A stretch of DNA of 64,000 nucleotides from Octopus sinensis. Lineage: Eukaryota. The position numbers were made by a program, and so were the translations under genes. The notes below the pieces were generated by a model that saw nothing but the letters and a program-made list of their open reading frames with translations, searched no databases and was not told where the DNA came from. Below are positions 8,561 through 63,022 of the stretch, in pieces (the first letter of the stretch is position 1; the number at the start of each line of letters is the position of its first letter). The stretch is taken from positions 496,001 through 560,000 of the forward strand of contig NW_021831989.1 in NCBI RefSeq assembly GCF_006345805.1, read 5' to 3'.

Positions 8561-8679
8561 TTTTTTCAAAAACAAGTTTAAGTTAAAATACTAATACTTA
8601 ATTTACTATTTTTCAAAATATTTGTTACATTAAAAAAATAAAATAGTTCGCGTTATTTATTTGTTTTGATTAATTTGTG

Positions 8680-9186
8680 ATGGATTCGGATATTTACGAA
8701 GTTGAAGAAATACTCGATAAGACCAAAAGTACTGACGGAACAACAATCTACTTGGTTAAGTGGAAAGGTTATGGCCAGTATGCATTGTATATAACTCTCA
8801 GCGATGAAAATACATGGGAGCCCGAGGAAAACATATCTACACTATCCATAGGGATTTACGAAAATCGCAATAATTCCAAAAGAACAAGTCTTCCGCGAAG
8901 ATCAATAGACAATACTGCCAATAATAGTCAAACTCATTTAATCAGTGCTGAATGTCAGACCTCATTTTCTCAATACGAAGGGAAGACATTTGGTAGGATT
9001 ATGGGGGTCGTGAAGTACTCAGACGATGTTTATTTTTTGATGAAATGGTACATTTCAATACTCAAAATAAGGAAAAACCTGAGGAAACCTGAGCTGGTGC
9101 ACTCGGATGTTGTCAAAAAGAATTGGCCATATCAGGCTATTGATTTCATGGTGGAAAGAGCATGTCTGATTGATGATTCTAATTAA
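8680..9186 (+). CDS. HP1/chromobox protein (chromodomain + chromoshadow domain), two in-frame 24-nt introns (8778-8801, 9048-9071)
   Basis: YEVEEILD..YLVKWKGYGH|DENTWEPEENI chromodomain; IMG..YFLMKW|KNLRKPELV..VKKNWPYQAIDF chromoshadow. Removing the two GT-AG 24-mers restores canonical motif spacing. Confidence 0.9.
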   Translation: MDSDIYEVEEILDKTKSTDGTTIYLVKWKGYGQYALYITLSDENTWEPEENISTLSIGIYENRNNSKRTSLPRRSIDNTANNSQTHLISAECQTSFSQYEGKTFGRIMGVVKYSDDVYFLMKWYISILKIRKNLRKPELVHSDVVKKNWPYQAIDFMVERACLIDDSN

Positions 9187-9759
9187 TTCTCTTTTTTTAC
9201 TTATTCTATGATGATGGGCTACAATCCATTTTCTAAGAATTTAGTTGTTTAATGGATGCGTCGCCAGAAAAAGTAGGAATGGTGATTAAACTAGAAAAAC
9301 TGTGCCTCATATGTTTTTATTCATTTCTTCGTAGTGGAGGATGAAACAGTTTTGTGAACAAATAATCACTAAAGATGTGAAAAGTGGTTTTTTCATTTTT
9401 AAATATTTATTTTTGACCAATTGAGAAGATGGGTCATTAGGATTTAAAGATACCAAACAAGCAAGGCAAGACATCTGAAAATACGATTGTTTCTATCTTA
9501 AGAACTAGAGGGACAGTTTGCCTTTGAGACGACTAGTGTTATTTTTTTGAGCACCAAGATAAATGACTTTGGTTCCAATGGGTCTTATATGCAATCCTTC
9601 GGGGTTATTGTAAATCAATTTTTTGCCGCCTATATATCTTAATTATTGGGTTTTCAAAGCTTTAACGTCAAAAGCACAAGCATAATTCTAAACATTAGCG
9701 TTCAATATAAGCAAAAAACGTTTTTTTAGAAAATTCTGTCTTGCAGTATATATAGGAAA

Positions 9760-12245
9760 AACATTTCCGTCAGCCGAGGAAGCTCTAAGACGTATCCAAT
9801 CTGTCCGTTCCATCCGCCATATCCCTGCGCGGATTCCTAAAGCAGCCAGGTTTCAAGCTGCTCTCTCCTTGTCTACAGCTATCAATCGCGCTCTGTCCTC
9901 TAATGACCAGTGTGACTGGTTGCACCTTTTCGGTTTTGCTTTATTTGGTATCGGGATCCCGCCCTCTAATAGCAACTCCAAAAAACTTTCCCCCGCCTCG
10001 ATAATAAAGCAACAACTTACCCTTTTCGATCATTGTACTTCGTTGTTCTCTTCCCAGTTCGACTCTCTCCGTTCAGACTCCTCCCGTTCTGACTCTCACA
10101 AAAGTGATGCCCCTTCTCCCGTAGACAGTGAAACTTCTCCTGACAACAACTACTTTTGCCGCAGGGTAACTAGTAAATTAATGGATGGTGATGTCCGTGG
10201 AGCGGTCAGACTTGTTGCCTCTTCCAACCGACTGTTATCTCCTTCTCCATCCGTTTTGTCTAATCTGAGGTCTAAACACCCTCCGCATCCCGTTAATTAC
10301 CGCACACCACCTGCTATTGATTCGATTGCATTTCCACAACTACTAGTTTCCGCGGAACAAGTTGTGAAGGCACTCAAAAGTTTCTCCCCAAGCAGCAGTG
10401 GGGGCATCGACGGTTTGAAACCAGGACACATTAAGGATCTGATTTCTCCCCTAACTGCTGAGGCTGGTCGCCAACTATTGACTTCTATTACGGATCTATG
10501 CAACCGCCTTATCGGGGGAGATTTACCCGACTTTGCACGGACGATTTTCTTTTCCGCTAATCTCACCGCCCTGGGGAAAAAGATAATGGTGTTAGACCGA
10601 TCGCCGTCAGCAATATTTTTCGCAGATTGGCCGAAAAGCTTGTCTGCCACGCAGTAGTCCCCGAGCTGGCCCAAAAATTTCTGCCCGCGCAATTGGGAGT
10701 TGGAATCAGCGGAGGTTGTGAGTCGGCCGCCCATTCTGTAAGGGAACTAATAGAGACTCCAGAAGAATTCATTATGGTTAAACTGGACATCTCCAACGCA
10801 TTTAATACAGTCAGAAGAGATTTCCTGTTGGAGTCCTGCTATGCTCTTGCCCCCTCGGCTTATCGTCTTGTCATCTATCTTACTCTCAACCAAGTCTCCT
10901 CTTGTTCGGTGATTCCGTTATTGTATCTTCGACCGGTGTACAACAGGGAGATCCTCTTGGTCCTCTGTTATTTGCAATCTGCGTCAACTCCATCGCCCAC
11001 TCTGTCCTTTCCCCTATAAACATCTGGTATCTTGATGATGCTACAATATGTGGACCACCATGCTCTGTCCTAGAGGACCTTCGCGTAATTATCCCTGCCC
11101 TCTCATCTATTGGTCTTGAGATAAACTCTGCCAAATCCGAAGTTATAAATCTCAATATCGCACACGGAATTTTTGTCGAAACTATGGCCGTTCTGGAAGA
11201 TATTTTAAAAGGCGTGCGGATCACCGATAAAAAAAACCTCCTCATCCTTGGCTCCCCAATTGGTCGCGAGGCTTTGTCTCAAACTCTTATTGACAAGGCA
11301 GCTGTTCTGTCATGCATTATTCAAAGACTCTCTCTCATCGACGCCCACGTCGGGTTCTTTCTTCTCCGTAATTACTTTTCAACTCCGAAGCTCCTATATA
11401 CTTTAAGAAGCTCTCCGTGTTTTCACGAACAAAATCTCCTTTCCGATATTGAAAATATTCTGAAGTCCGGAGCAGAGTCGCTATTCAACGTACGTTTCGA
11501 CCCTCTGGGTTGGATTCAATCCACCCTGCCTGTAAGCTGGCTGGATGCTTTCCCTGTCCCTTCCACCGGTAACCTATTAGACAAGGATTGTCTACAAATT
11601 GGATTATCATTGCGTCTCGGATTGGAAATCTGCGAAATACATAAATGTCGTTGTGGTGCTGTTATTGACCGTTTCGGTCTACATCCCCTTTCCTGTCGTC
11701 GCAGTGCAGGGCGCGCACCACGCCATGCAGCACTTAACGACGTTATTCAGAGGGGGCTCACGGCCGCTGGAATTTCATCAATCCTTGAACCCGTTGGGCT
11801 CGCGAGGGGAGACGGAAAAAGACCCGACGGTCTAGCGACTTTCCCGTTTGAGTTCGGCAAGTCTCTGATATGGGATGCGACGTGTTCAGACACTTTCTCG
11901 GAGCTTAATCTTCCTTCTTCAGCTGTCGAGGCTGGCTCAGTCTCTCGCAAAACCGAGAAGATGAAGATCGGAAAGTACAAGGAGCTCTCAGAACGATATC
12001 TGTTCACTCCTATCGCCGTCGAGACTTCCGGCATCATCGGCGAAAAGTCCCTTTCCTTTTTGAAAAAGCTTGGCCGCATGATTTCCCATAAACGGGGAGA
12101 CCCACGCAAGTCCAAGTGGCTTCTCGAAAGGATTTCCTTGGCTATAGTACGTGGAAACTGTGTTTCCATTTACGAGGCCGGGAATTTAGTTAGTTAATAA
12201 CTATTTTATTCTTTAACAATTTAGGGCTATTAATTAAAAAAAAAC
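9760..12245 (+). mobile_element. CRE-clade non-LTR retrotransposon (RT + zinc knuckle + restriction-like endonuclease), frameshifted and internally deleted
   Basis: RPIAV, KLDISNAFN, GVQQGDPLGP, WYLDDATI, CRCG..HPLSC, RHAALND, KRPDG, WDATC, PIAVETSG; A-rich tail near 12236. About 100 aa are missing between LPV and SWLDA relative to the 14114 copy. Confidence 0.9.
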
Positions 12246-12298
12246 ATTAAAAAAATAGTATATTTTTTTAAACAAAAAACTGATTTTTGAACATTCAA

Positions 12299-13954
12299 TG
12301 TCACCGTCCAGACCGGCCGGGGCGCCAGATCGGTCAATTATCTAAATACAAAACAAATATTTTTCCTACAAAACATTTCATTGCAAAAAAATATTGATAA
12401 TAAAAAAATAAAATCTTATTAATAAAAAAGTTGAAAAGATTAGCATTAATCAATGGTTTTAGTTGAATTAACTCGAGACACCCTCGAAAAAATTAGGGAG
12501 TATTTGGAATCAGGCCACCTTGATGATTCCTTGAGTTCGGAAGAAAAGGCACGAATACGGAGATATGCCAAAAAATTTAGTTTCAAGGAGAACAACACCA
12601 ACATTTCTAAAAATGGCTCAAAGTTGCGTTTTTTTTGTATCGAAGACACTGAACTTAAGTTAAAATTCATTAAAGTAGTGTATTTGTTTATTTAAATTAG
12701 GCTCAACACAATCTTAATCACTTTGGACGTGATAAATTGTACAGTTTATTGACACTTACCATTTATGGTGCCAGACGTACTGATGTGGCATCTGTGGTAT
12801 CTCAATGTGTTTATTGTCAGGTAAATTACCAATTTTATTAATTCTAGTCGAAACGATTGCTTGCGACTAAACCAGCAATAACGCCTATTATTGCTTCTTC
12901 CCCAAGATCTTATCATACATTGTAGATCTTATCGATTTTTTTTTTAAAGTTATATGTAATTAACAAATAGTTATTAACTAACTAAATTCCCGGCATCGTA
13001 AATGGAAACACAGTTTCCACGTACTATGGCCAAGGAAATCCTTTCGAAAAGCCACTTGGACTCGCGTGGGTCTCCCCGTTTATGGGAGATCATGCGGCCA
13101 AGCTTTTTTAGAAAAGAAAGAGACTTTTCGCCGATGACGCCGGAAGTCTCGACGGCGATGGGAGTGAACAGATACCGCTCAGAGAGCTCCTTGTACTTTC
13201 CAATCTTCATCTTCTCGGTTTTGCGAGAGACTGAGCCAGGCTTGTATCGATTTAAGACGCTATTCGACCTGAAATGAAAATTATTCCTGGGTAATTTAGT
13301 AATCTAAATAACAGATTCTTGTTTTATTGGATTCCTTTTCAAAATTTGCTATGGTAAAATGTGCTTTTACCAAATCAGCTAAGGAGATCCGCGGAATCCT
13401 AGATGATATGTTTTGTATTATGAAGAGGATGAAAAAGATCAAAGTATACATATTAGCAGAGTAAAAAAACTTTAACTGCAAGTATTCATGGGGTTCGTTC
13501 TGTGTTTTTTATCGTGTCATATTTACTTAATTGTGAAATAATTGTGCCATTGTTACAAATTCGACGCGGCCGAAGGCCGCATAGGGAAAAATATTCACAT
13601 TGAATCATCCGGTTGTAGGCCGGATTGTATTTTAGAGTTTTAATGATAAAAATAGAAATTTACAACATTTTTAAAAATTAAAAATGGATTTTTCTAATAA
13701 ACTTTATTGTTGAGAATTGTTTGGCTAACCTTGGTTAAAGCGTTTTTAAATAAAATGCAAAATCAATTCGGTAATTATCTGGAAATGACTGGATGTTGGT
13801 TTTTATGAATTCAGTAACTTCAATATTTTGGCAAAAATAATATTAAAATCAACAAAAGAATGAACAGAAAAAGAAAATAACTTTCGAAAGGTAGTTTTTA
13901 TTAAAAATTTTATACATAACCGATCTGGCGCCCCGACCTATCTGGATGGTGACA
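12299..13954 (+). mobile_element. Ginger2-type DNA transposon (Gypsy-like integrase) with TIRs, 5-bp TSD and mini-introns; non-autonomous
   Basis: 36-bp TIRs TGTCACCGTCCAGACCGGCCGGGGCGCCAGATCGGT / ACCGATCTGGCGCCCCGACCTATCTGGATGGTGACA; TSD TTCAA (12294-12298, 13955-13959). Spliced ORF from 12453 gives the HHCC finger (HNLNHFG...CVYC) and VDLID...YSW|ILVLLDSFSKF. Introns at 12675-12700, 12821-12847, 13291-13314. Confidence 0.85.
12940..13241 (-). mobile_element. 5'-truncated CRE-like insertion nested in the Ginger integrase
   Basis: Nearly identical to the 3' end of the 9760-12245 copy; poly-A tail (T run near 12936-12945); TSD TATCGATTT on both sides. Confidence 0.88.
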
Positions 13955-13994
13955 TTCAATTAATAGAAAATCTAATAAAAAAATAAGTTACTAT

Positions 13995-15380
13995 TTAATA
14001 GGCTACAATCCTCAACGCAGGAAGAATTCGGTTCCGCACTAAACAAGCTGCAACTTCGCCTGCCGGGGCTAACACCCACACCCATTGATGATGTTCTATT
14101 CCTCGGCGCGCCCATGGGCCAAATCCAACTTAAGAAGTCGCTATCAGAGAAAGCCAAATGGGTCACTGATTTCACAAATAAGCTCATGTTGCTTGATTCT
14201 CACTACGGATTTTTCGTGCTCAGAGCAAACCTCATGTTGCCAAGGCTTCTATATTTGCTGCGAACTTCAAACTGCTCAATACAATCCGACATGCTTCAAT
14301 CGCTCGATACTTCTCTGAAGTTGGCCGCTGAAAAAATCCTAAACATATCCTTTGATGACGCTGGTTGGACTTGCTGCAAATTACCTCTACGCCTTGGCGG
14401 AGTTGGACTCCGTTCACCTCTGGACATGGCTCTTCCTGCATTCCTCTCCTCACGTGCGAGCTCCCAAGCCCTCATCACCCAAATCCTACGTAACTCTCGC
14501 GGATTGGAAGAGGACCGGGTTTTCTCTGGAGCTTGCGAATTCTGGAAGGGATCTGGATTGGCCATTCCATCTAACATTTCACGCCAATGGGAATGGGATG
14601 ATATCTCCAGCAAAGCTAAAATGGAAGCAATCAGACCTACATTGGATCAGCATCGCCTCGCTTGTTTCGGTGCCGCTGCCAGACCTGAAAGTGGGGCGTG
14701 GCTTAATGCCCTCCCTTGCTCCCAATCTGGAACCCTTCTCGATAATGACTGTGTGAGGATTGGCGTAGCAATGCGCTTGGGACTTAATGTCTGTTCGGGG
14801 GGCCAATGCCGATGTGGGAGTAAAGTCGATACCAAAGGACTACATCCCCTGTCATGCAGAAGGAGTGCTGGCCGTGCTCCCAGACACTCCGCTATCAACG
14901 AGACTATTTCGGCTGCGTTACAAGCAGCTGGATTCCCGACAGAACTGGAACCCGTTGGGCTTGACCGTGGAGACGGTAAACGCCCAGATGGAGTCACCAT
15001 TTTCCCGTGGAGTAATGGGAAATGCCTCGCGTGGGACTCCACGTGCACAGACACCTTCTCAAAGACCAATATAGTTGACTCCGCGATCAGTCCAGGCTCA
15101 GCCGCTGAGAAGGCTGAGGTACATAAAGCTCAGAAATATTCCAACCTGTTGGACAACTTTATCTTCTCCCCAATATCTGTAGAAACCTCCGGGGCCATGA
15201 GCCAAAAATCGTTTGAACTCGTCGTTAAAATCGGGAATCTGATCTCGAGAAGACGGAGAGAGCCTCGGGAGAAGCAATGGTTGTTCCAAAGAATATCCAT
15301 TGCGATCCTGAGGGGCAACGTCTTCTCGATCATCAGCAGCTTAAGATTATGATAATCATTTTTACTCAATTTAAAATAAG
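13995..15380 (+). mobile_element. CRE-clade retrotransposon (second family), 5'-truncated, 412-aa open C-terminal ORF
   Basis: ORF 14114-15352: LPLRLGGVGL, SGAWLNALP, CRCG..HPLSC, KRPDG, WDSTC, PISVETSG, QRISIAILRGN. Confidence 0.9.
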
Positions 15381-15948: not shown

Positions 15949-17055
15949 CTAAAAATCGGCATCCATAGTGAAGACGTGAGATTCGGAATCCCCTGGCTTG
16001 CCCATGACTCCCATTCGCTGATATTCACCAACCCTTTTCTCAAAAAAGTTGGTTTTTCCATCGAGTGAAATGTTTTCCATAAAGTCGAAAGGGTTCGAAC
16101 TATTGTAATACTAAATGGAGGGTCAAAACTGATTAAACCACATCGTAGCCAAGCTCAATCAAGAGCCTGTCAGCCACAAACTCAACGTACTGACACATGA
16201 GATCGGCATTCATTCCGATGAGCTTCACTGGAAGAGAATCACAGACGAATTCTTTTTCAAGAGTGACCGCCTCAGTTATAATTTCAGCGACCCGGAATCT
16301 CGGCAATTTATTTGTCAAGTGAGAATAAAGCAGACAGGCGAAATCGGTGTGCAAGCCCTGAAAATGATGTAATAAGCTACTTCGTCCCGACTAATCAATT
16401 CGTTACTGTACGTCAACCCAGGCATGAGACCCCGCTTCTTCAACCAAAAAATGGATGCAAAGGACGCAGAAAAAAAAATCCCCTCGACTGCAGCAAAGGC
16501 AATCAGTCTCTGAGAAAAACTAAGTTCAGTACTCTCAATCCATTTTAAGGCCCAATCCGCCTTCTTTTTAACAAATTCCATGTTTTCTATTGCACAGAAC
16601 ATTTCTTCTCTACGAGGTAATTCTATCAAAACAACTTTTTCGTTAGATCAGTAATGTAAGTTTCGATCAAAGAGGAATACATTTCCGAGTGAATATTTTC
16701 CATCGCAATCTGGAATCCGTAAAAACACCGAGCCTCGGGGACCTGCACTTCCACCGCAAATCGTTCGACCTACTAATTTATGATTAAGCATGACCAGATT
16801 CTCATTAACAATTCCATCGGAGGCAGCAAAAAAGGCAAGAACATGGGAAATAAAGTATTGTTCGTTGTCTTTTAAATTCATCCAATCAGCAATATCCTTG
16901 GATAAGTCGACTTCTTCCACTGTCCAAAATGATGCAAGGGCCTTTTTGTACATTCTGAAGATGTCGGGATACTGTATGGGGAACAGTACAAAACGACGAG
17001 GATTGGCAGTTAACAGAGGTTCTTGCTCATCATTAGTAATATTTGATGGTTCCAT
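15949..17055 (-). CDS. RRM2: Ribonucleoside-diphosphate reductase small subunit (R2), four mini-introns of 25, 26, 23 and 28 nt
   Basis: [29 protein letters not shown]|[43 protein letters not shown]|[33 protein letters not shown]. Confidence 0.96.
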
Positions 17056-33870: not shown

Positions 33871-36800
33871 TTATTTATTGATGAATTTTCTGTTAATTAA
33901 GTGGATGAGCAGATTCACGTTGCACTGAGCCTGGTCTAGCGAGATGTGTCCAATCCCCTCTCTTTGTAATTCCAGAAGATTCTAATTGAGGGAAATTCAA
34001 CTTTCAATAAACCTGGAATGTGAACTTGGAGGTTTTCATCACCACTCCAAGAAAAGAGGCAAATGTTGAAAAAGTCCCAGGGTCATCTGTCTCTTCAATA
34101 GTAATTTGAAGTTTGTTAAAACTAAATCGTTTATTAGACAATACTCTTTGTCCTTAATTCCAGTAACAGATAAAAGAATTCCATTTTCGTGCATCTTTTT
34201 CCCGGAATATCGGATTTTTATCGGTTTGCGAGCTTTATTTTTTGACCTGAAATTAGTAATAATAATTACTTTGTGTTCATTGTCTGACTTAGTAACGAAA
34301 TTATATATTTATTATATGACTCTATCTGATCTTGGTGAAAATCATGTTTTTTAAGCAACTCCTGGTGTACTAGTTTAAGGCTTGCGATATCTTTCTTTCT
34401 CTCCAAATCTAATTTTCGCTTTTCCACAATTTCCTTTGAATGTTTTAAGGGTTTTCGATACTTTAGCAATTTGTATTAGGTATGATTGATAGCCGACTTC
34501 TCTTTCGATGTATCCATCCTCGATGAGAGTTTGGGTATTTTGTATGACGAATTGTTTTATTTCTTGAATCGTTAGGCTGAAATATTGTTATTGTAATATG
34601 TCTAAACCGATTCTTGTTTTCCTCAGGTAAAATTTTTTCAAAAACAGCCAGTTTTTTTTCAAATTGGTCGTAGAACAGTTGGTTCAATTTTTCCTTTAAA
34701 TAAAACGTAGACACTAAACTTCTGCTTCAGTGTTAGGTGTGGAGAAAAGTTCATCAAAGTCTTTACTCCTTTGACATTGGAGCAGCTGGCAAATCATTAA
34801 AGTACACCTGAATTTATTCACTCGAGAAATACTTTAAAAATAAGGCCTTTTTCGTCGACCCGCTTTCCATTACTGAAGAATTTCCAATACAGTTATTCAT
34901 CGTTATTATGAATTCTACCTGTTTTAGTTTTTCATTTGTATCAGTTTCATCATCTAAAATCAGCATTAGAAAAAAAAATTAACGGTCAATGCCAATTAGT
35001 TTTTCCGGAGTCAGCTCTCCTATTTCGTCTAATTTAGCCAAAAAAAATTCATTTTTAAATAAATGTTTGGATCTCAGTATTAACTATTAAGTAACGCAAT
35101 ATAAAAATAACATCGTGTATTTGTAACAAATGGTATGCAGATATATAAATCTGAGGTGGTGCGAGCAATTTCTCGTCCATGAATTCATCAAATTTAAAAT
35201 GCGTGTTCAAGTTTTCTACGTTGCAAACTTTTTCAATAAAGTCTCTAAAAATGAATAATATACACAAGTTCTTTAACATGGTGAGCAATAAATATAACTA
35301 ATACCTAAACGGATGTCGCCACTTGTCAAAAAAATCCTTGATTTGCGGAAATGAACAAATTGAACAAACATCTTCAGGTTTTCCATCTGTAGCCAATATT
35401 TGAATCAACCGAGCCACTTCCGCCAAATTGAAACGTTGGTCGTTGCTGATTATGGAATCAATTGAACCAATAAAAGCTCCAAATGATTCGGGCACAACAA
35501 TTGCCACGTTCAAGTAACGAAAGTAAACTAAATTGGAAATCGTCGCAAAAATAGATGCTTCGTCAAAACTTGTATGCTCCAGCAAACATTTTTTTAATAT
35601 AGAGCACATGTACCGAACTCCATAACTATTTTTATAGTGATTTCATTACGGGATTTTGTCGTATCCTTTTACAATTCCTTGCAATACGTCATCTGTCAGT
35701 CTTATTAGTTTGGAGAATGACGATTCCAGCATGCTACGTACATTCTCGTGTACACATGCTTCTTCTGCTGTCACATTGTAAGGAAGATTACTATTCTCAC
35801 AAAATATAGAACTATACCTGGAGACTCCTTCGTCGGCTTCTTTTTTGAAGATCCACTGTTTGTATATCACAATCGGGTCAGTTTTAATCTTCAAAATTTG
35901 ATTATCAAGGACTGGCGATAAGAGTGGAGCAATGTGTTCGCTGATGTCATATTCTTTGCTTTTGAGGTTTCTGAATGGGAAATTATCGGCAATATTCCTC
36001 ACCTACAAATATACACAATTAATTCCATGATGAAATTATCTGCAGATAAAAGTTCAAAAATTGAATCAGTTTTCAAATTTCTAAGAAAACATTGACAAAT
36101 TTTCAGAATACCTCACTTCATCTTCTAAAATGTTAGTAAATGCTTTAAGAATAAGGTATTCCTCCCGTTTATGAGTGGCGTGATTAAAGCAGTTCAAAAT
36201 ATTATTCCTTAATTTGTTGGAGTTTGGGGTATTTTTAAAGTTTTGAATCAATAACGATAGACACTCGGGATTAGTCTTAAATACTTTAGTCAAATAAAAA
36301 CTTGAAGTGTGTAAAATATGTCAGAATATTTATCGAGAAGATCTCTTGTTTCTTTCTTAATAACATGATTATCTGAGACGCCTTGATCTTTTATTTTTTT
36401 TAGTTTATGTAGTTTTTCATTTTTTTGATTTTCACTCTATAATAGGCTAATAAAAACTAACCAGCACTGAGATTTGATTGCGAATTAAGAGGCCCGCTTC
36501 TTGTCCGATTTCTTCAACTTTCTTTTGCAATTTCTGATTCAATTTGATTAATCTAAACGTTTCCATTCTCAAAATTTGAAGTTCTTGAAAAATTAATAAT
36601 AAACATTTTCCAACCCATTTCTTCCTTAAATTCACTTTCCTTGGTATTTAGTAAATGCATAAAATCTTGAAGAGCGGCAATAGATTGGAAATCCCCCGAC
36701 ACTACAAATTTTACCAATTAAAAAGTGAGAATTGATAAAATAATATTTATACATAAGGAGCGGTAGTTTTTTTGTGTACAACTTCCACGAACTATGGCTT

Positions 36801-39041
36801 GAATTTTAACTATTTGAGGCATCTTGAACATTATAAGGACAAATTAAAACATGATCATAATAATACTTCATGAATTTTTTATGTGGATAGTAAACCAAAA
36901 AACTCCGAATAGCACTCTGTAACTATATCGTATTTAGTATAAATCAGGATTTACCGTGACAGTTTGTTCAATTGGAATACTTAAAGACTGTTTATAACTT
37001 TCATAAGTTGATTTTACATTCCTCATGCGAATTAATTTCTATCAATTGTTTATTGCAATTAAACTTGAATAATCAATGCATGTTTTAAAACTGATGCCAA
37101 ATATACTTTTTCTTTCTGTAAAATAACTCGCTGAAAACATTGACGAATAACACTTTGTAGCAAGGTAATATATTGTAAATTATCGTGATAAAACAATTCA
37201 CGAGCTTGCTCATTATTCTTGTTATTTATAATTGTCTTAATGTAAATTTTTTATTGCAAACTTGAATGTCTAAACTTGATAGGAATGAAGTATTTTCAGT
37301 ATAATCTTCCGTTTGAAAATGAAACCATTTTTTATTGTTTAAATTATAGTATATTTTAAAGTTTCGTTCTTTTACAGATTCAACAGTGATCCAATCTCCA
37401 GAAGAATCACGTGGCTCTAAAAGATGATTTTCGAAATTTTACTAAGTAATTTTGCTTTTACAAGGTCTGCATAGTAGTCGGTTTCAGAATTTACGTTTTT
37501 AAAATTGCTTTTTAAAATATCTGAAGAGTCAAATTTATCTTGCATTTCCAAAGTCTCGTTTATTTCAATAACAGCATTAGACACTAAATATGTGATAAAT
37601 TGATACATTCAATCAATTCCGTGGCAGTTGAATTAGCTTTTGCGATAGCAGATTGGACATGAGTCATATTCATGATAACTCCATCATTTGCCTATAAACA
37701 CAATTAAGAATAATATTTACGTTGAAAACTGATTCTAAAGAGTTCATATAGAGTGAGATGTGATCAATGTTAACATTTTTAAATTTGGGTATTGGAGATT
37801 TTAAGATTTTTAACAGTCTTTCATTGTCACTATCTCTGACTGAATTGTTAATTTCTTCCATAATAGTAGAAACTAAATAAAGTAATATTTTAATTTTTGA
37901 ACGATTCAAGAAATCTATTTTTTCTTGTATTTCTTCCTTATTCAAGTATTGTGTATAAATGTCTTGATCTATATCGGTATTTTTATTCTGACAAAAATAT
38001 TAACCAGAAAAATTTTACATTTGATCTTTTCAATTCCAAATATAATGCCAAGTTATCTTTGTAGGTTAGAATGTTTGCCGCCACCACGGAATTCAAACAA
38101 CTTATAGGATTTTGTAAAAGTTCAAGCAAATGGTCTGGTTCAGAGTTGTTCAGTAAGGATTCGTTGATAGCGATAATGGCAGCGTGCACTAAAAGGAATA
38201 ACGTCAAACATATAACTGGCAGCATCATCTTCGCTAATCTATATTAAATTGAGTTCAATCAAAACCTCGTCGGCCAGGATTCCTGCAATTTTTGAAAAGT
38301 TGGGTAGTTCTATTTTATAAAATTCCAATTGTTTTTGTATTGCATTCAAATGTTCGTCTAAGAAAATTTGATTGATACAGCCAACGTGAAAATTCTGCAA
38401 TTCCATATATGCTAACGATCGGCTTGGATCTCCCCTTGCGGTGAAGGAAAATGCTGATGAGTAGTTATTCGTGTCCAACCTTAATGCGTGTATGCAGAAA
38501 ATCAGCTTAGGTATATTTTTCTTGTCATAAATGTCAGTTGTTTCTGGGTGAAATACCTAAAAAATGAACGAATTAAATCAGTTAATTAATTCATGAAATA
38601 ATTGAATATTTTATGAATAATAAATATGTAAAATGAATTAATTGTCAAGGATTGCACAAACCTCGGGAAGTTCAATCTTTTTAAGGAACTTGAAAAAATA
38701 ATTGATATTGTCTGTATGTCGAAAATGTAATCCGAGAGATTCCTAATGTTAATTTAATCCACTTTAACGCGGTAATGTTTCCTAGAGATGTCGAATATCT
38801 TATTGCGTGGAATCACTTTGGGTTCAAAATGGCATCCAAGCATTGATAAAATTACCCCATCTCGAAGAGCTTCTTCGAAGTCGATCACATCTGGCATATC
38901 TTCGTCGATGATATCATCAATCCATCTACGAAAGTTATACACAACCAATATATACATTCGAGCTTCTTCCAGATAACAAAGATATTTGTAAGCATTTTGT
39001 AGTTTTCGCTTTTCATCAATATCTTCAAATTCGCAATCCAT
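33871..39041 (-). CDS. IQGAP: IQGAP (CH domain, IQ region, RasGAP, RasGAP_C), many mini-introns
   Basis: AYKYLCYLEEA, FEEALRDGVIL, GLHFRHTDNI, PETTDIYDKKNIPKLIFCIHAL, KIQAIVRG, REEYLILK, NLVYFRYLNVAIVVPE, QRFNLAEVAR, NVNLLIHLINRKF. Confidence 0.92.
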
Positions 39042-39199
39042 ACGAGTTATGTATATTAAATAATCTATTCATTCTTTTGGGTAAATCATATTCAAATAAA
39101 AACTTATTAATCATTTTAAATTAATATAAATATTAATTTTACATCACCTAATGTTTCAACATTACAAAAAGTAATAATTTATAATTCTCGACAGCTAGA

Positions 39200-43108: not shown

Positions 43109-44625
43109 CAGTACCGCTCAAATGTTTCGGACCACCCTATTTTTCTCAATTTCCAAGTCAATCCTAAATTATTTTTATACGGTTCTTTAGAGAAACTTAT
43201 TAGATAAGCTTAAATACATTTATTCTATTCTAAAATTTTCTTTAAATATTTTTGTTTGGCGCCAATTGAATATAATTGATTTTTGACTCGATCATATGTT
43301 CCGGACCAGTTGCAATCATATGTTTCGAACCAGTTAAATCTCTTTAAATTTAAATAATTTTTGATTCAATTAAAAACAAAAGACTAATAAATAACAAATG
43401 CCGCGTTTTTCACTGGTTGATCGGGTCGCTATCATCACTTTTTTTAAAGATGGAGCTTCACAAAGAGAAATTGCCGAAAAATTAAAAATATCCAAAACTG
43501 CTGTTCAAAGAACAATTTCCAGATATTCATCCGTTGGACTATATTCCGACAGACCCAAATCTGGTCGACCGAGATTGTTATCCCCAAGATCTGAACGCAA
43601 ATTAGTGAGAATTTCGAAAGCAGACCCCACAAAAACGGCAAATCAAATTAAATTTGATATGAAATTAAATTCTATTGTAAGCACAAATACAATTAAAAGA
43701 TGCCTACAAAGAAATAATTTGAATGGGCGAAAGCAATGCCCAAAACCAAGTCTTTCCATATGCCATAAAAAGGCTAGAAAAAATTGGTGCATTGAGAAAT
43801 TAACTTGGAGCCAAAATGATTGGGGTAAAATTATTTTTAGTGATGAATGCAAAATAAATTTGCATTCAAACACAAAAAATTATGTTAGAAGGCCACCAAA
43901 CTCTAGATTTGACTCAAAATATTGTTTAAAAACACGAAAATTTTCTCCTAGCATTATGGTCTGGGGAGCTATTGCTGCAAATGGATGGAGAAACATTGTC
44001 TTATGCATTAAAAATGTTGATTCCGCAGAGTATCAGAGAATTATAAATGTTGGACTCGAAAATTTTTATGATGAGACCATGTATCTCCAGCAAGACGGCG
44101 CTCCTTCCCATCGGTCCATGTCGACAATGAATTTTTTTCAAAGGAAACAAATAAAAATCTTAGAAACTTGGCCGAGCCAGTCACCCGAACTGAATATTAT
44201 TGAAAATATGTGGTCGGTACTAAAACAAAAACTTTATGATCTGGAACCAAAAGATCTTCCAGAGCTCTGGAATTTGACCAAAAAAATTTGGTACGAGATT
44301 GATAATTCGTACATTGAAAAATTATACAATTCACTTCCAGAGCGAATAAATGCTGTTATAACGAACAACGGAGGAAATATTAATTATTAACTTTTTATAA
44401 GTTTAATAAATTTTCGGTTTTTTTTAAACTGGTCCGGAACATATGATCGAGTATAAAATCGATAATTTTAAAATTGCGCCAAACATGAATATCTGTCCAA
44501 GTTTTTAAAATAGAATAAATGTGTTTAAGCTTATCTAATAAGTTTCTCTAAAGAACCGTATAAAATAATTTAGGATTGACTTGGAAATGAGAAAATAGGG
44601 TGGTCCGAAACATTGAGCGGTACTG
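43109..44625 (+). mobile_element. Full-length Tc1-family transposon with IR/DR-type TIRs of about 200 bp
   Basis: TA TSD; TIR CAGTACCGCTCAA(A)TGTTTCGGACCACCC; internal repeats of TATGTT(C/T)CG(G/A)ACCAGTT. Confidence 0.95.
43398..44390 (+). CDS. Intact Tc1-like transposase, DD35E spacing, 330 aa
   Basis: Paired-like HTH, SGRPR, IIFSDE, MVWG, QQDGAPSH...WPSQSPELNIIE (35 residues between D and E). Confidence 0.93.
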   Translation: MPRFSLVDRVAIITFFKDGASQREIAEKLKISKTAVQRTISRYSSVGLYSDRPKSGRPRLLSPRSERKLVRISKADPTKTANQIKFDMKLNSIVSTNTIKRCLQRNNLNGRKQCPKPSLSICHKKARKNWCIEKLTWSQNDWGKIIFSDECKINLHSNTKNYVRRPPNSRFDSKYCLKTRKFSPSIMVWGAIAANGWRNIVLCIKNVDSAEYQRIINVGLENFYDETMYLQQDGAPSHRSMSTMNFFQRKQIKILETWPSQSPELNIIENMWSVLKQKLYDLEPKDLPELWNLTKKIWYEIDNSYIEKLYNSLPERINAVITNNGGNINY

Positions 44626-45302: not shown

Positions 45303-46679
45303 TCACCAACCCGAAGCGACACGTCTCATACGCCTTGTTTTGCTTAGCTGTATAAAAACCTGGTCGAACGATCCAAATCGCGTAATTTTTTGTCAATCTC
45401 AGCATCACTCAAAATTTCGATGGTGGGTCCCCACTTCTCAGCTTCAGGTAGTGACCGATAAAGCTGATTGTCGACCGGCGGCAATGTCGAATCCCCACTA
45501 TGAAGTAAATACAATTTGATACTATAAGGCGAATTTACGATGATGCTCCAGTTGACCGCGAATGGAATATGAAATGACTGATTGGAACTCCCCTCCAATA
45601 CCTTTCGGAACAATAAGCAAGCAAACCCAAGTCCGCACAGAGAATGCGAGCAAAGGCCTCTGGATCATTATTAGGGTCCGATAAGTCCCACTCAAATTGA
45701 TCTACCAGAGAAATGTTGTTGAGTTGAATATTGAGCTGTGGATGATAGACCACCAAACCTTGATTGGAACTCTGTGTTCCATCGAACTGAAATGGGAGGT
45801 CTGGTGATCAGCCAGTTGCTGTTCAATGCACTTTACAATGGCCGGCACGAAAACCGAATTGATCAATCCGATTTCGTCACAAAGTATTTCTGCAAACATC
45901 TTTGGAGTTACAAGTTTCTCTAAAGTATTCCAATCACCAAATACCGTTTTTATTCCACAGAAAAACATCTCGAAGTTTTTGGCCTTCCAGTTCCAAGTCA
46001 ATTCTAATGGCCACCAAGTCCTCACTTTGGGCGGAATTTGCGAAAAAGGCGTCTGAATCCATATCGTCAATGCTAGGACAGTCACAGTGGGAGGCAACCA
46101 TAAAGCAAAGCTGCGACCTTTATTTCTGCCAACTGCCCTGTTGGGGTTGACAATCGTACACGTCGGCACTGGTGCCAAGTGCTGATTCGTCGACAAAGCC
46201 ACTCCTGCCGCGGACAAATGACCCGAATTTATGCCAGCCACGGTGGAACGCCGAGGTTTAAATGTGCACAGACTTAAACTGATATGTGAAATGAACTTTG
46301 AAGCCAATTCCTCGACGTGTTGTTCGTTTTGAGCAGAAAGGAGTTTGAGGGCCTCCTCGGTGCCACTCAGAACAGCCTCAATCTCACTGGCCCTGACCAG
46401 CGTTATGTTGGAGCAAGCAGTTGTGTTTATAATTTCTAGTTTGTCATATCGCGGGCATACGTCGAGAATAAACGTTTTGTTTTTCTTCTGGTGTCAAAAA
46501 CCGACGCCACAAAAATGGGTATTTTTTGTACAAGGCTCCTCTCTGTAGTTTTAGGAAATGGCCGACCTATTTTTGAAATAAGTAGATTTTTAAACTTCGG
46601 ATCCGATGCAGTACCATTCTCCATTTTCTTCCAGCTGGAATTGGACTGGTCGTGAGGGATGTCGCCTCTCTTGTGCCAT
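45303..46679 (-). CDS. SMARCB1: SWI/SNF subunit SNF5/INI1
   Basis: PVQFQLEENGEWYCIGSE|VG, RGALYKKYP.LWRR, IRIDLELEGQKLRDVFLWNKN, FAEILCD, LVDQFEWDLS, PEAFA..LCADLG.GGEF, KKLRDLDRSTR|RMRR. Confidence 0.95.
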
Positions 46680-47925: not shown

Positions 47926-49399
47926 TCATCCGGGAGAATTAAAATAGAACCGTTTTTTCATGGTAGTCATAAAAGTGGGAGTCTGAGAGACACCATCAGT
48001 GGTGACCTGGTCCCCAATAAGGTGATTGACTCGCGTGAATAAAGTCAGCAAATCATCTCGCCAGGAATATTTCATTAGCACATACACTATGCCGTTGACG
48101 AACCAACTGCCCCTTTCCACATCCCGCACAGATACATAACCTATATTTGTGTTAACAGTGATAGACCAGGAATGGACGCAATGGCTATAAACATGTCTGC
48201 CTTCGCACCCGTTTTGATTCTATCTGATGCAGACACCATGGAAGCCTTCCGCCCCGAAGCAGAGGTTAGTCTCGAATTGGAGAATAGGTCACCTTCCTTC
48301 AGTTCTATAACTCCCTCCAGTATTCTACAACCTCCTTGGCATCCCTGAATCACAAATATTTTGGGCTTGTTGGCGAGTGCTCCGCAATGTTCTTTATCAA
48401 AAATGTCGGTGATGAAGTCGATGGGGAGATCAGACCCATCAACCCCGCATATAGTCCCATTCTTCCCGTGTGACAGTGCAACCAGGAGCAGAGAATCAAT
48501 GCCTCCCAGCAAATCAACATCCTCGCTATATTTGGTGAGGAGTGATTCCATTTCCTATTCCATAATGAGAAAACATACTTGTGTGGTTAGGTTAGTGTGT
48601 TGATTAACGAGGAAGCCTAAGGAAGAGAAGAGTTCCTTGCAAAGTCGACTGTCCCGCTCCGACCCATCCCTGCGAGGGAGGGAATCAAAATCAATGTTTT
48701 CTATAATAAGACACAGCCCACAAGGATGCGAGTTGATGACATACACATCTTTCGACTAATCATGTCTCATTAAAAACACCCAAATAATGTCGTTAGATGA
48801 ATCAGCAGTGGTGATCTCGACAGTAGGACGACTTTCATTCAAAAAATCTTAAAAATGAAGGACAGTCTACTTTCAAATCCCAAACGGATGTTTTCATCCT
48901 CACTAATCAACCCATTTCCGCGAACAATCGACGAACGAGTGGAACCGGGGGTCATTTCTGAGTATGATTTAATCCGCCTTTCCACGTATACATTTTGAAT
49001 GAATTCAGTGGTAAAGGTATCCTCAGGAGGGAGGCTACTATCCTGCCACCCTTAAAACATAGGACATCTCAAAGTATGGCCGATATATGATTTATGACTA
49101 ACCAAGTGTCGTGGCAATGTTTTTTTGGTTGGTAGCAACGAGTGCTTGAATGAACACTTGGAAGGATTCTGGTCTTTTCTGAATCAAGTCAAGAAATGTG
49201 ATGGCAATTTCCCTTCTATTTTTACAGCTCTGCATTAGAATCGTGATTGATGTATTAATGCAACCAGGATTTCTTCAGTCATATTTCTTGAGAAAATATT
49301 TTGGGCGTCGAAATATGAAATGAAGAATCTATCCACATTTAGATCATTGCATAGAAGAACATAATTCTCTCTAATCAAATCCTTGTGGGCCTTATCCAT
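47926..49399 (-). CDS. CARD-containing initiator caspase (caspase-2/9-like)
   Basis: N-terminal CARD-like MDKAHKDLIRENYVLLCNDL..; p20 GLCLIIEN, RDGSERD, LSHG, KPKIFVIQGCQG; p10 ADMFIA, GYVSVRD..GSWF, QTP...KRFYF. Confidence 0.88.
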
Positions 49400-52213: not shown

Positions 52214-53766
52214 GGTCATATGTTTTAGACATTCTGAAAAAATCCCAGTGTTTGATTTTTCTAAAGAAAAATCTTATTAAAAAAATGCTTTTCATTAAGC
52301 ATTATCCATTTTTTTTAGTTATTTATTTTTTCCCAATCTCATCGTCACTGTATTTTCGACATCTTGATCTTTTTATAGATTTGTCGAAACTGGCCCAGTC
52401 ATATGTTTTAGACATTTACGATGCACATCCATAATCTGGAATTTTTAAAAGTTTAAAACGAGTTTTTATTAATTAAAACACAAGTTAGTATTTAGTTACA
52501 TCTCCTTTTTTCGATATTACATCATGTATTCTATTTGGGATCGACAAATACAAGTTTTGAATATAATCATCTCCATCTTGTTCCATTCATCTTTTGCCAT
52601 CTCCCATAGTTGCTTAACGTTCTGAGGGTTTCTATTTCTGATTTTGCTCTTTAAATAATGCCAGCAATTTTCTATTATGTTAAGATCTGGCGATTGTGCA
52701 GGCCAATTGTTTAAAATATTTCACCTTTTTCAAGCAAATAATTTTTTGTAGACCGTGAAGTATGACATGATGCACCATCTTGTTGGAAAATAAAGTTATC
52801 ATCATATATCTCAGAAAGCCCTTGTTCCAAGATTCGTTGATATTCTACGGAATCTACATTTCCTTCGCACAATATCAAGGCACTTTTTCCATCGTGTCTG
52901 ATACCGCCCCAAACCATGATTGAAGGTGCGAATTTCTGAGTTTTCGTTGTGTAGTTCGAATTGAATCTATTTCCAGGAGGTCTCCTTACGAATTCTCGTG
53001 CTTTCGAAATTAATTCGATGCGGCACTCGTCAGTAAAAATGACCTTATTCCAATCGAATGAAATGTTTCTAGTGCAGAATATTTTTCTCTTCTTGATATT
53101 ATTAGTTGAAAGTCTAGGTTTTTTGGCTGCTATTCTTACGAAAAGTTCATTTTTGCGTAAGATTCTTCGTACAGTTTCGACACTGACGGTTTCCGTAATA
53201 TTTAGGTTTTTCTGATTTCATTCGCTGTTTTTTTGGGAAAACGTCGAGACTCACGTACAAGATTCCTTTGAGCACGTGCCGAAAGAATACAATTTCTTCC
53301 AGATTTTGGTCTGTCGTAAAACCCATTTCCATCCAAATACCGTTGGTAAGTGTGATTTACGGCGCATCTGGATATTCCAAGTAAAATCGATATTTCCTGT
53401 ACGGTATGACCATTTTCTCGCATAAAAACAATTCTATGACGCTGTTCAACAGAAAGTCGTGGCATACTGCTTTCAAATTAATTTAAAACACGTTTCCGAT
53501 ACGAAAAATAGAAAAAAAGTATAAATTTTATTGAAATATAATGAATTTAAATAAAATGTCTAAAACATATGACTGGGCCAATTTCGACAAAATCCTTAAA
53601 CATATGAAGAAGTCGAAGATAAAAGCGAAGATAAGATATGAAAATGATAAATATATAAATAATATAGATAATACTTACTAAAAAACTTTTATTTTATTGG
53701 ATTTTCTTTAGAAAAATCAAAACACTGGGATTTTTTCAGAATGTCTAAAACATATGACCGGTACTG
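52214..53766 (-). mobile_element. Tc1-family transposon (DD35E-like), frameshifted, flanked by a 41/42-bp direct repeat
   Basis: TIR GGTCATATGTTTTAGACATTCTGAAAAAATCCCAGTG at both ends; the left copy lacks the terminal CAGTACC. Motifs KSGR, MVWG, QQDGASCH, WPAQSPDLNIIEN. Confidence 0.9.
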
Positions 53767-61740: not shown

Positions 61741-61949
61741 GTTCGTAAAAGATCAAATCAGTTAGGTACCAGCTATCCATAGCCTTCGTGGCAATTACAA
61801 AACAGTCAAAAAAGTTTGATATTTCTAACAAAAAGGACATCTTTCCTTATATGTCCATTTACCTAGACTTCGTTTTTTGACCGGTAGCAGTATACAACCG
61901 GCAGCATTTTGCAAACCAGTAGCAACATACCATCCGGCCATTAATTAAG

Positions 61950-62650
61950 GACATGGAGATAAGAACACTGGCATTCGCTATTCACCAAGAATGCCACTGG
62001 GGAATACTAAAGCTTCACAAGAAGTGCTGTGAATTTTATTTTACTGTGAAACGCCCTATTATCAAACAAATTATAAAAGACTGCAAAATTTGTAAAGTAT
62101 TTTTGATTAAATATACTTAGGTATCCGATTCTAATTACTATGTACGGCAAGAAGTCCAAATGAAAGATTTCAGGCGGATCTTATTGATGTTAGAAGATAT
62201 AAAGATTTTAACGATGGATATAATTGGATATTAACAATTATTGACATCTACAGCAAATTCGTAGTCTGCAAATCCTCAAAAAATAAATCTGTTTTTGGTA
62301 AAACTTAACATTTACTTTAAGAAGTAGAAATAAATTAAAAAAAATTTTTCGTCAAATTGGATATTGTCAAATTTTACAAACGAACAACGGATTGGAATTC
62401 AAAAATCAACTGATGGATCAACTATGCGGAGAAAATAAACTCAAACATATTTATGGAAGACCAAATTATATCCAGTCACAAGTTTATAAATTTGAAATAA
62501 ATTAGGGTGTAATTGAGCGCTTTAACGAAACATTGACACGGGGTATGGCAAAACTGATGGATAAAGAAGGAACTAAAAATTGGAAACAATTTTTGGACAA
62601 AGTAACTTTTTCTTATAATACGACACACCACTCGGCGATCAATGAGAAAG
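61950..62650 (+). mobile_element. Ginger2/KRABA2-type integrase pseudogene with three 24-nt introns
   Basis: HQECHWG...CKIC HHCC finger; ERFQADLID, WILTIIDIYSKF, LQTNNGLEF, GRP..QSQ|GVIERFN, W...L..V.FSYN..HHS. Introns at 62097-62120, 62298-62321, 62482-62505. Confidence 0.82.
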
Positions 62651-63022
62651 GGTATTTTCGAAATTAACACTGTGATTCATGAAATACCAGGTTGTAATCT
62701 TATTTATAATTTAGATGAAAATAATGAGACATCGTTTGTCGAAGATAAACTTAATGGTAAATTTACGATGCATTTATTTTTAGAAACGAATAATAAAATT
62801 TTTTATTTCACTCCTCCAGGCATGAATTCATCTTATTTTAAAAGAATGAATAAAAAGGGGAGTACACAGGTCAAAATATGATTTCGAAATAGGAATGAGG
62901 TATAATTAAATAATAACAGTTTAAGATCGAAGCTTAAAAAATTGTGGGACGAATCCGTCATTGAAGCTACACAGATTTGAATCCACAAGAAAATGAATGT
63001 AAAAAATATAATGTCTAATAAC

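What the first reader, a model, noticed from the sequence alone, without database searches (positions are those of the whole stretch)
12299..13954. Ginger2-type integrase transposon with TIRs, 5-bp TSD and host-sized mini-introns
Seen: TGTCA...TGACA termini, 36-bp GC-rich TIRs, TTCAA TSD, and a Gypsy-like integrase (HHCC finger, VDLID) split by introns of 26, 27 and 24 nt, so it is essentially invisible in the ORF track. Established: Ginger elements are cut-and-paste transposons that use retroviral-type integrases and can contain introns. Inference: this is a lineage-resident family whose expression depends on the host's unusual mini-intron splicing, which would restrict horizontal transfer to other hosts.
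Basis: partly seen in the sequence, partly recalled or inferred. Interest (0 to 1): 0.7.

Follow-up and report, generated by a model that had tools for sequence, protein, structure and literature searches.

The report
Ginger-like transposon remnant with mini-introns
This is a broken copy of a small jumping gene that has dozens of copies in what is likely a dicyemid (a tiny parasite of cephalopods) co-assembled with its host; its transposase gene carries predicted 24-27-base introns like the parasite's own, likely gained after the family arrived, since its nearest outside relatives, some from microsporidia, appear to be uninterrupted.

Summary
The 36-bp TIRs (32/36 matched), TGTCA...TGACA ends, TTCAA duplication, H2C2 finger and 26/27/24-nt introns are confirmed. 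The family is a repeated DNA transposon (61 exact TIR ends in G000); 18 of 20 independent sites have an exact 5-bp TSD, only 5 of 18 TTNAA, but 18 of 18 lie in A-N5-T. No intact copy of this family was found. Fifteen diverged families share the intron positions (56 introns, median 26 nt; host genes in the window median 26) with dN/dS about 0.2; splicing was not seen in RNA. G000 holds two animals; this contig is likely dicyemid. The four-intron clade (100/95) nests among uninterrupted proteins including microsporidian ones, apart from LTR pol; one origin for G000's families is rejected. Structurally Ginger2/Tdd-like; formal membership is open. The splicing barrier to transfer is untested. This scan found the same kind of element before on other DNA of this genome.

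The parts
12294..12298 (.). left copy of 5-bp target site duplication TTCAA, preceded by A
12299..12334 (+). left TIR, 36 bp, begins TGTCA
12453..12674 (+). transposase exon 1 (74 aa from ATG); N-terminal module before the zinc finger
12675..12700 (+). predicted intron 1, 26 nt, GT-AG, phase 0
   Evidence: same site (template aa 76-78) in 11 of 15 families
12701..12820 (+). exon 2, H2C2 zinc finger
   Evidence: PF17921 26.6 bits
12821..12847 (+). predicted intron 2, 27 nt, GT-AG, phase 0
   Evidence: same site and phase in 12 of 15 families
12848..12938 (+). exon 3, first part: frameshift near 12911, then the first catalytic Asp (VDLID); 12930-12938 is the first copy of the 9-bp duplication made by the insert
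   Evidence: L035 is in frame here
12939..13244 (-). 306-bp 5'-truncated 3' end of a non-LTR retrotransposon (CRE-like by its RT plus restriction-like endonuclease; clade name recalled), antisense, with poly(A) tail; 94% identical over 278 nt to 11929-12206; absent from L002 and L003
13245..13290 (+). exon 3, second part (13245-13253 second copy of the 9-bp duplication)
13291..13314 (+). predicted intron 3, 24 nt, GT-AG, phase 0
   Evidence: same site in 15 of 15 families
13315..13421 (+). exon 4 remnant, start of the RNase H-fold core, cut by a ~587-bp deletion that removes the second Asp, the Glu (D-35-E) and intron 4
13422..13475 (+). last 17 codons and stop of the transposase, out of frame after the deletion
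13919..13954 (-). right TIR, 36 bp, ends TGACA
13955..13959 (.). right copy of TSD TTCAA, followed by T

Best explanation
The element is a non-autonomous copy of a Ginger-like DNA transposon that was likely moved by cut-and-paste by a relative's transposase, in a small animal that is likely a dicyemid, and whose predicted mini-introns were likely gained in that host. Shown: TIR-bounded copies at many sites, each with its own 5-bp duplication inside A-N5-T; an H2C2 plus D-D(35)-E protein in longer copies; the deleted, frameshifted form at three different sites (window, L002, L003), so it spread after it had lost its catalytic core; the retrotransposon tail only in the window copy, so it came last. 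Inferred: the transposase binds the TGTCA ends, and joins them to target strands 5 bp apart, host repair making the duplication (by analogy to retroviral integrases and TDD-4); excision rather than copying (not seen); splicing by the host's ordinary spliceosome (from conserved position, restored frame and purifying selection, not from reads); gain of the four introns on the stem of one clade after an uninterrupted ancestor entered the host lineage. That the introns now confine the clade to hosts able to splice 22-35-nt introns is a prediction only.
For: 61 exact TIR ends, 0 for the reversed control. 18 of 20 independent flank pairs with exact 5-bp TSD, 0 of 20 with 4 or 6 bp; A before and T after in 18 of 18; 7 of 7 further sites read by eye; 7 of 7 sites with a 5-bp TSD in other families (of 14 TIR calls in 54 loci). 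DNG..35..E core in L034, L035, L050. 56 introns at shared positions in 15 families, 22-35 nt, median 26, 41 of 56 not a multiple of 3; dN/dS 0.16-0.22 in 4 of 14 pairs, synonymous sites saturated in the other 10. Host RNR2 and NDR genes: 12 introns, 23-30 nt, median 26, whose removal opens frames of 337 and 441 aa. Second RNR2 on a 165-Mb contig with introns of about 0.5-1.1 kb. NDR, RNR2 and a caspase score best to animal proteins. Introns under 30 nt are reported in animals only for myxobolids and dicyemids (PMC13644364); Dicyema mean 26.2 nt (PMC2222250); related proteins carry an octopus label from their source. Tree: four-intron clade 15 rows 100/95, inside a 22-row clade 99/94 with 7 uninterrupted outside proteins including Pseudoloma; LTR pol apart 100/99; AU p 3e-8 against one G000 clade.
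Against: No RNA evidence of splicing. My aligner allows only GT/GC...AG gaps, so the dinucleotides are by construction. No intact copy of this family: the three copies that keep the core at 97% or more are all broken, so the mobilising enzyme is not identified. The outside 'uninterrupted' proteins were not checked on DNA; some may be spliced transcripts or annotations, and most have no organism label. A distant relative at window 61947-62661 has, by eye, a GT-AG segment at the site equivalent to intron 2, which would mean parallel gain or an older intron. The host was not placed by a dicyemid sequence. The AU group was named after the tree was seen. The N-terminus of relatives looks YPYY-like and a degenerate GPY/F-type module aligns at the C-terminus, which blurs the Ginger2 label.
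Confidence: 0.8

Rival explanations
1. The four introns are old: the ancestor of the whole group had them, and microsporidian and other relatives lost them (or are represented by spliced mRNA), so nothing was gained in this host; the introns only shrank with the host's.
For: Outside proteins were seen only as proteins; shared introns among Ginger1 families are published (PMC2836005); a possible intron at the intron-2 site in a distant relative in the window.
Against: Other families in the same genome, which can splice, lack all four sites (L097 none; L100, L103, L108 one at another site; L094, L096, L113 none in the zinc finger or core); the uninterrupted state spans all outside rows of the 46-row group, so several independent complete losses would be needed.
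Confidence: 0.12
2. The short segments are not introns but small insertions in dead copies.
For: No spliced read; the window copy is a pseudogene.
Against: Same positions and phases in families only 55-74% identical in protein, variable lengths, saturated synonymous sites with dN/dS near 0.2; host genes show the same segments at the sites of conventional introns.
Confidence: 0.03
3. The transposase descends from a Polinton-like virus or virophage integrase, or forms its own lineage beside Ginger2/Tdd; it works like a Ginger but is not one.
For: Family profile scores 528 against an H2C2-less rve group, against 315 for KRBA2-type Ginger2 and 306 for Gypsy pol; atlas neighbours include viral clusters at 0.92-0.95; a metagenomic H2C2-less relative lies beside a weak capsid hit (E 6e-4, below cut-off). 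This is a question of membership and is compatible with the best explanation's mechanism.
Against: The rve group was picked from the family's own hits (biased); the element has H2C2, a 5-bp TSD and no polymerase or capsid gene; Ginger2 is itself reported to group near Polinton integrases (PMC2836005); the deep nodes are unresolved.
Confidence: 0.3
4. It is a remnant of an LTR retrotransposon pol gene.
For: Gypsy-type H2C2 and rve domains; best solved-structure matches are foamy-virus and Ty3 integrases.
Against: Own ATG, TIRs instead of LTRs, no RT or RNase H within full-length copies of about 2 kb, introns, and separation from 6 pol proteins at 100/99.
Confidence: 0.01

Closest known systems
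Ginger2/Tdd DNA transposons, above all TDD-4 and TDD-5 (Bao, Kapitonov, Jurka 2010, PMC2836005, parts 1-3 of 5 read; TSD 4 or 5 bp per PMC10045372, passages)
   Same: TGTNR ends, TIRs, 5-bp TSD, AT-rich palindromic target, single H2C2 + DDE transposase without OTU or Ulp1 domains.
   Different: Shorter (about 2 kb, 36-bp TIRs against 2.7-6.7 kb and 45-297 bp for the autonomous families in that table); target A-N5-T rather than RTATAY; four to five 22-35-nt introns; YPYY-like N-terminus in relatives; not shown to group with TDD-4.
KRBA2/SCAND3-type animal GINGER2 (PMC3575427, part 1 of 3 read)
   Same: Same domain order; 37% identity over the 81-aa core exon to a protein labelled KRBA2; in the quick tree such proteins fall on the non-LTR side.
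   Different: A separate lineage: profile score 315 against 528 for another group; different motif around the Glu.
Unnamed microsporidian integrase-like proteins (Pseudoloma neurophilia P0023, Dictyocoela muelleri P0016/P0018, Nematocida P0021)
   Same: Nearest named outside relatives; 42% identity over the core exon to P0023; same clade with support.
   Different: Uninterrupted as proteins; TIRs, TSDs and genomic structure not seen here.
Ginger1 (PMC2836005)
   Same: Intron-bearing integrase-type DNA transposons with introns shared between families; YPYY-like N-terminal module.
   Different: Ginger1 has 4-bp CCGG/CCGT targets, GPY/F and OTU or Ulp1 domains; none met here.
Dicyemid and myxobolid ultra-short introns (PMC13644364, parts 1-2 of 3 read; PMC2222250, passages)
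   Same: Length about 26 nt, signals reduced to GT(a)...AG, AT-rich.
   Different: Reported for host genes; my searches found no paper on such introns in a dicyemid transposon.

Membership tests
Ginger2/Tdd | TIRs with TGTNR termini | tested here: met
   TGTCA ends, 36-bp TIR (shorter than the published 45-297 bp)
Ginger2/Tdd | 4- or 5-bp TSD at AT-rich sites | tested here: met
   18 of 20 exact 5 bp, 93% A+T
Ginger2/Tdd | H2C2 zinc finger | tested here: met
   PF17921 above cut-off
Ginger2/Tdd | DDE core | tested here: met
   D...D(35)E in L034, L035, L050; only the first Asp survives in the window copy
Ginger2/Tdd | no YPYY motif | tested here: inconclusive
   relatives show Y..P..F..Y before the finger, the window copy lacks the Pro; the published alignment figure was not visible and the motif's context is recalled
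Ginger2/Tdd | no GPY/F motif | tested here: inconclusive
   no literal GPY/F and no SH3_Tf2-1 or p58_C Pfam hit for P0005, but the C-terminus aligns to the Gypsy GPY region
Ginger2/Tdd | groups with TDD-4 in an integrase tree | not testable with these tools
   no TDD-4 sequence among results; the tree with named KRBA2-type proteins was lost with the script machine; deep nodes open
Ginger1 | 4-bp CCGG/CCGT TSD | tested here: not met
Ginger1 | C-terminal OTU or Ulp1 domain | tested here: not met
   full-length sister copy ends after about 420 aa; no such Pfam hit in relatives scanned
Gypsy LTR retrotransposon | RT and RNase H in pol, LTRs | tested here: not met
Polinton/Maverick | 6-bp TSD, integrase without H2C2, large element | tested here: not met
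   5-bp TSD, H2C2 present, about 2 kb; criteria from PMC10045372 and PMC2836005
IS3EU/GingerRoot and IS481EU | no HHCC motif; 6-bp or 4/15/25-bp TSD | tested here: not met
   criteria from PMC10045372 passages
spliceosomal introns | removed from the mRNA | not testable with these tools
   no RNA run was listed; indirect evidence only

The most novel reading that the evidence does not exclude
An undescribed integrase-transposon lineage shared by microsporidia and a dicyemid entered the animal several times as intronless elements; one entrant gained four ~26-nt introns in a burst on a short stem branch, radiated into at least 15 families that kept them all, and is now locked into hosts that splice ultra-short introns, while its intronless sisters in the same genome stay free to move between phyla. 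This would be a natural, replicated test of intron gain and of splicing as a host-range barrier for transposons.
Probability: 0.3. Interest if true: 0.65.

Novelty: new variant of a known kind. Interest (0 to 1): 0.4.

Why it matters
Ginger elements with introns and dicyemid mini-introns are each known, and this copy is a dead derivative, so the locus alone is ordinary. The family is more useful: introns at fixed sites in one clade and absent from its sisters in the same genome give datable cases of intron gain at AG|G-like sites, and the nearest named relatives in microsporidia point to transfer between parasites (such exchange with animals is reported in PMC4202319, abstract and passages). 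The invariant A-N5-T target across distant families is a clean readout of integrase target geometry. Practically, these contigs and their transposases appear in protein databases under an octopus label, some with the mini-introns read through.

Tried and rejected
TTNAA target preference: rejected, 5 of 18. Autonomous copy of this family: none found; 3 copies at 97% or more and 2 at 89% hold the core (40 of 93 candidates scored), the three closest are truncated, deleted or interrupted, the two at 89% were seen only as partial matches; the longer TIR pairs owe their length to nested retrotransposons. The sister family copy L050/L058 is full length but has a frameshift. RNA support: no RNA holder listed; this is no evidence either way. 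Metagenome and viral scans gave only relatives at 24-42% (52 and 2 loci); 8 of the 52 were checked for inverted repeats and none showed family-like TIRs, so the outside relatives' structure stays unknown. 30 proteins were looked up for names; most have none. A tree including named KRBA2/SCAND3-like proteins could not be finished because the script machine was lost; profile comparisons were used instead. Literature searches gave no paper on Ginger elements in dicyemids or on a splicing barrier for them; PMC5751038 (passages) lists 'Ginger' in microsporidia but by the rve domain alone; PMC4158355 was seen as a listing only; PMC12863088 passages only.

Full report
Observation. The element runs from 12299 to 13954, begins TGTCA, ends TGACA, has 36-bp TIRs matching at 32 positions and is flanked by TTCAA on both sides. 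The TIR pattern is found twice in the window, 0.00 times in shuffles. Exon 2 passes the Pfam H2C2 model. A spliced aligner of my own, given two uninterrupted database proteins as templates, placed introns at 12675-12700 (26 nt) and 12821-12847 (27 nt) in the window and the 24-nt intron in copy L002, which is 13291-13314 in the window. The aligner permits only GT/GC...AG gaps, so the evidence lies in position, phase and restored frame, not in the dinucleotides.

The copy is dead three times over. A frameshift near 12911 and a deletion of about 587 bp at 13421/13422 (measured against L034) are shared with L002 and L003, which sit at other sites with other duplications; the deletion removes the second Asp, the Glu and a fourth, 25-nt intron seen in L034 and L035. 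A 306-bp antisense retrotransposon tail with a poly(A) end and a 9-bp duplication (12930-12938, 13245-13253) is present in the window copy only; it is 94% identical to the 3' end of the element at 9692-12197 next door. So the defective form spread first, which needs a transposase from another copy, and was hit afterwards.

The family. Most copies are different internal deletions of 1.1-1.4 kb. Among loci L001-L053, 27 TIR pairs reduced to 20 independent flank pairs (loci without both TIRs were not counted): 18 have an exact 5-bp duplication, none a 4- or 6-bp one; 5 of 18 are TTNAA; all 18 have A before and T after. Seven further sites read by eye agree, and so do the 7 sites with a 5-bp duplication in other families, out of 14 TIR calls in 54 loci; the other 7 calls had no 5-bp duplication and may be wrong pairings. 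The target is A-TWWWA-T, the 5-bp counterpart of the RTATAY reported for 4-bp Ginger2 (PMC2836005). Only three copies keep the core at 97% or more, and all are broken (lower bound, 40 of 93 candidates scored). A sister family copy (L050/L058, about 1.98 kb, other TIR, ATAAA duplication) is full length with one frameshift and the same four introns.

The introns. In 15 families chosen across the clade, 56 introns fall at five shared sites (template aa 76-78: 11 of 15; 116: 12; 158: 15; 239: 15; 356: 3), 22-35 nt, median 26, 41 not a multiple of three. Against L054, dN/dS is 0.16-0.22 in 4 of 14 pairs and synonymous sites are saturated in 10; exon flanks are mostly AG|G-, AG| or GG|-like. Two of the 15 are 5'-truncated, and some missing calls coincide with frameshifts. 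This is strong indirect evidence that the segments were spliced while the families were active. No RNA run was listed, which is no evidence.

The host. RNR2 and NDR genes in the window have 12 introns of 23-30 nt, median 26, one GC-AG; removing them opens 337- and 441-aa frames (intron coordinates read by eye, then checked). NDR scores 210 bits to STK38 against 161 to Cbk1, RNR2 130 to M2 against 104 to the yeast-type chain, and a caspase is present (species of the PDB chains recalled), so the host is an animal. G000 has a second RNR2 on a 165-Mb contig with five matching exons and introns of about 0.5-1.1 kb: the assembly holds two animals. Introns under 30 nt are reported in animals only for myxobolids and dicyemids (PMC13644364, parts 1-2 of 3), Dicyema averages 26.2 nt (PMC2222250, passages), and related proteins carry an octopus label. 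A dicyemid is therefore likely, by inference; no dicyemid sequence was compared.

Relatives and origin. The closest named outside proteins are microsporidian: Pseudoloma, Dictyocoela, Nematocida; most others are unlabelled. Of 231 sequences 21 were dropped for short coverage, 210 went into a quick tree, and I chose 65 for a careful one. The 15 four-intron rows are one clade (100/95) inside a 22-row clade (99/94) with 7 uninterrupted outside proteins. Other G000 families fall elsewhere, beside other outside proteins, and have none of the four sites. Six pol proteins bearing RNase H, five of them also RT, are apart at 100/99. Holding 20 G000 rows together is rejected (AU p 3.3e-8; L096 left out; group named after the tree was seen). 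Gain of the introns in this host and several separate entries is the simplest reading. Against it: the outside proteins were not seen as DNA, sampling is thin, direction of transfer is not resolved, and a distant relative at 61947-62661 may have an intron at the intron-2 site as well as two at other sites.

Membership. Ends, TSD, target, H2C2 and DDE fit Ginger2/Tdd; Ginger1, Gypsy, Polinton, GingerRoot and IS481EU each fail a tested feature (PMC2836005 parts 1-3 of 5; PMC10045372 passages). Two criteria are inconclusive: relatives have a YPYY-like stretch and a GPY-region homologue. The family profile scores 528 to an H2C2-less rve group, 315 to KRBA2-type Ginger2 and 306 to Gypsy pol; the first group came from the family's own hits, so this is biased, but it argues against the animal KRBA2 branch (PMC3575427 part 1 of 3). 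It works like a Ginger2/Tdd; membership is open.

Mechanism and verdict. Shown: repeated TIR-bounded insertion with 5-bp duplications in A-N5-T, spread of a core-less derivative, later retrotransposon hit. Inferred: integrase-type strand transfer with a 5-bp stagger, excision, splicing by the host machinery, intron gain in this host. Untested: the transfer barrier. My searches found no paper on such elements, but this scan has noted Ginger-like elements with mini-introns on other DNA of the same genome several times; my reading was written before I looked, and those notes are not independent support. New variant of a known kind; interest 0.4.

Noticed in passing
window 61947-62661 (+): A second, decayed integrase-type transposase of a distant family with predicted 24-nt introns at other sites, and possibly one at the site of intron 2.
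   Followed up: partly
window 9692-12197 and 13979-15352 (+): Two non-LTR retrotransposons with a restriction-like endonuclease end (CRE-like, name recalled) flank the element; the first is the near source of the inserted tail.
   Followed up: partly
window 15950-17055 (-) and G000:C4 near 57.51 Mb (L085-L087): Two RNR small-subunit genes in G000, one with 23-28-nt introns, one with 0.5-1.1-kb introns: the assembly holds a second animal on small contigs.
   Followed up: yes
P0001, P0007, P0049 and cluster members: Database proteins labelled octopus 'KRAB-A domain-containing protein 2-like' are these transposases; P0001 reads through two mini-introns, an annotation error.
   Followed up: partly
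window 54385-54359 (-): A 27-nt GC-AG intron in the NDR kinase gene.
   Followed up: partly
L007, about 90 bp after the stop codon: An 89-bp retrotransposon 3' end inserted in the element's 3' untranslated part.
   Followed up: no
L092:1320-2975; L115:1150-2931; L114, L116, L122: Family copies are often hit by other elements: a Tc1-like transposon a few bases from the window's insertion site, a related TGTCAC...GTGACA element carrying a retrotransposon, and LINEs.
   Followed up: partly
L134:1177-1683 (G000:C3): A decayed KRBA2/SCAND3-type Ginger2 on a chromosome-scale contig, a different lineage from the small-contig families.
   Followed up: partly
L139: A metagenomic integrase without H2C2 facing a 553-aa ORF with a weak capsid hit, likely a Polinton-like virus or virophage fragment.
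   Followed up: partly
window 8674-9186, 35298-39068, 45702-46493, 48141-48554: Host genes: HP1-like (chromo and shadow domains), IQGAP-like (CH, RasGAP), SNF5, caspase.
   Followed up: partly
window 43395-44390 and 52711-53217: ORFs that look like Tc1/mariner transposases (by eye, not scanned); the first is an uninterrupted 331-aa frame.
   Followed up: no
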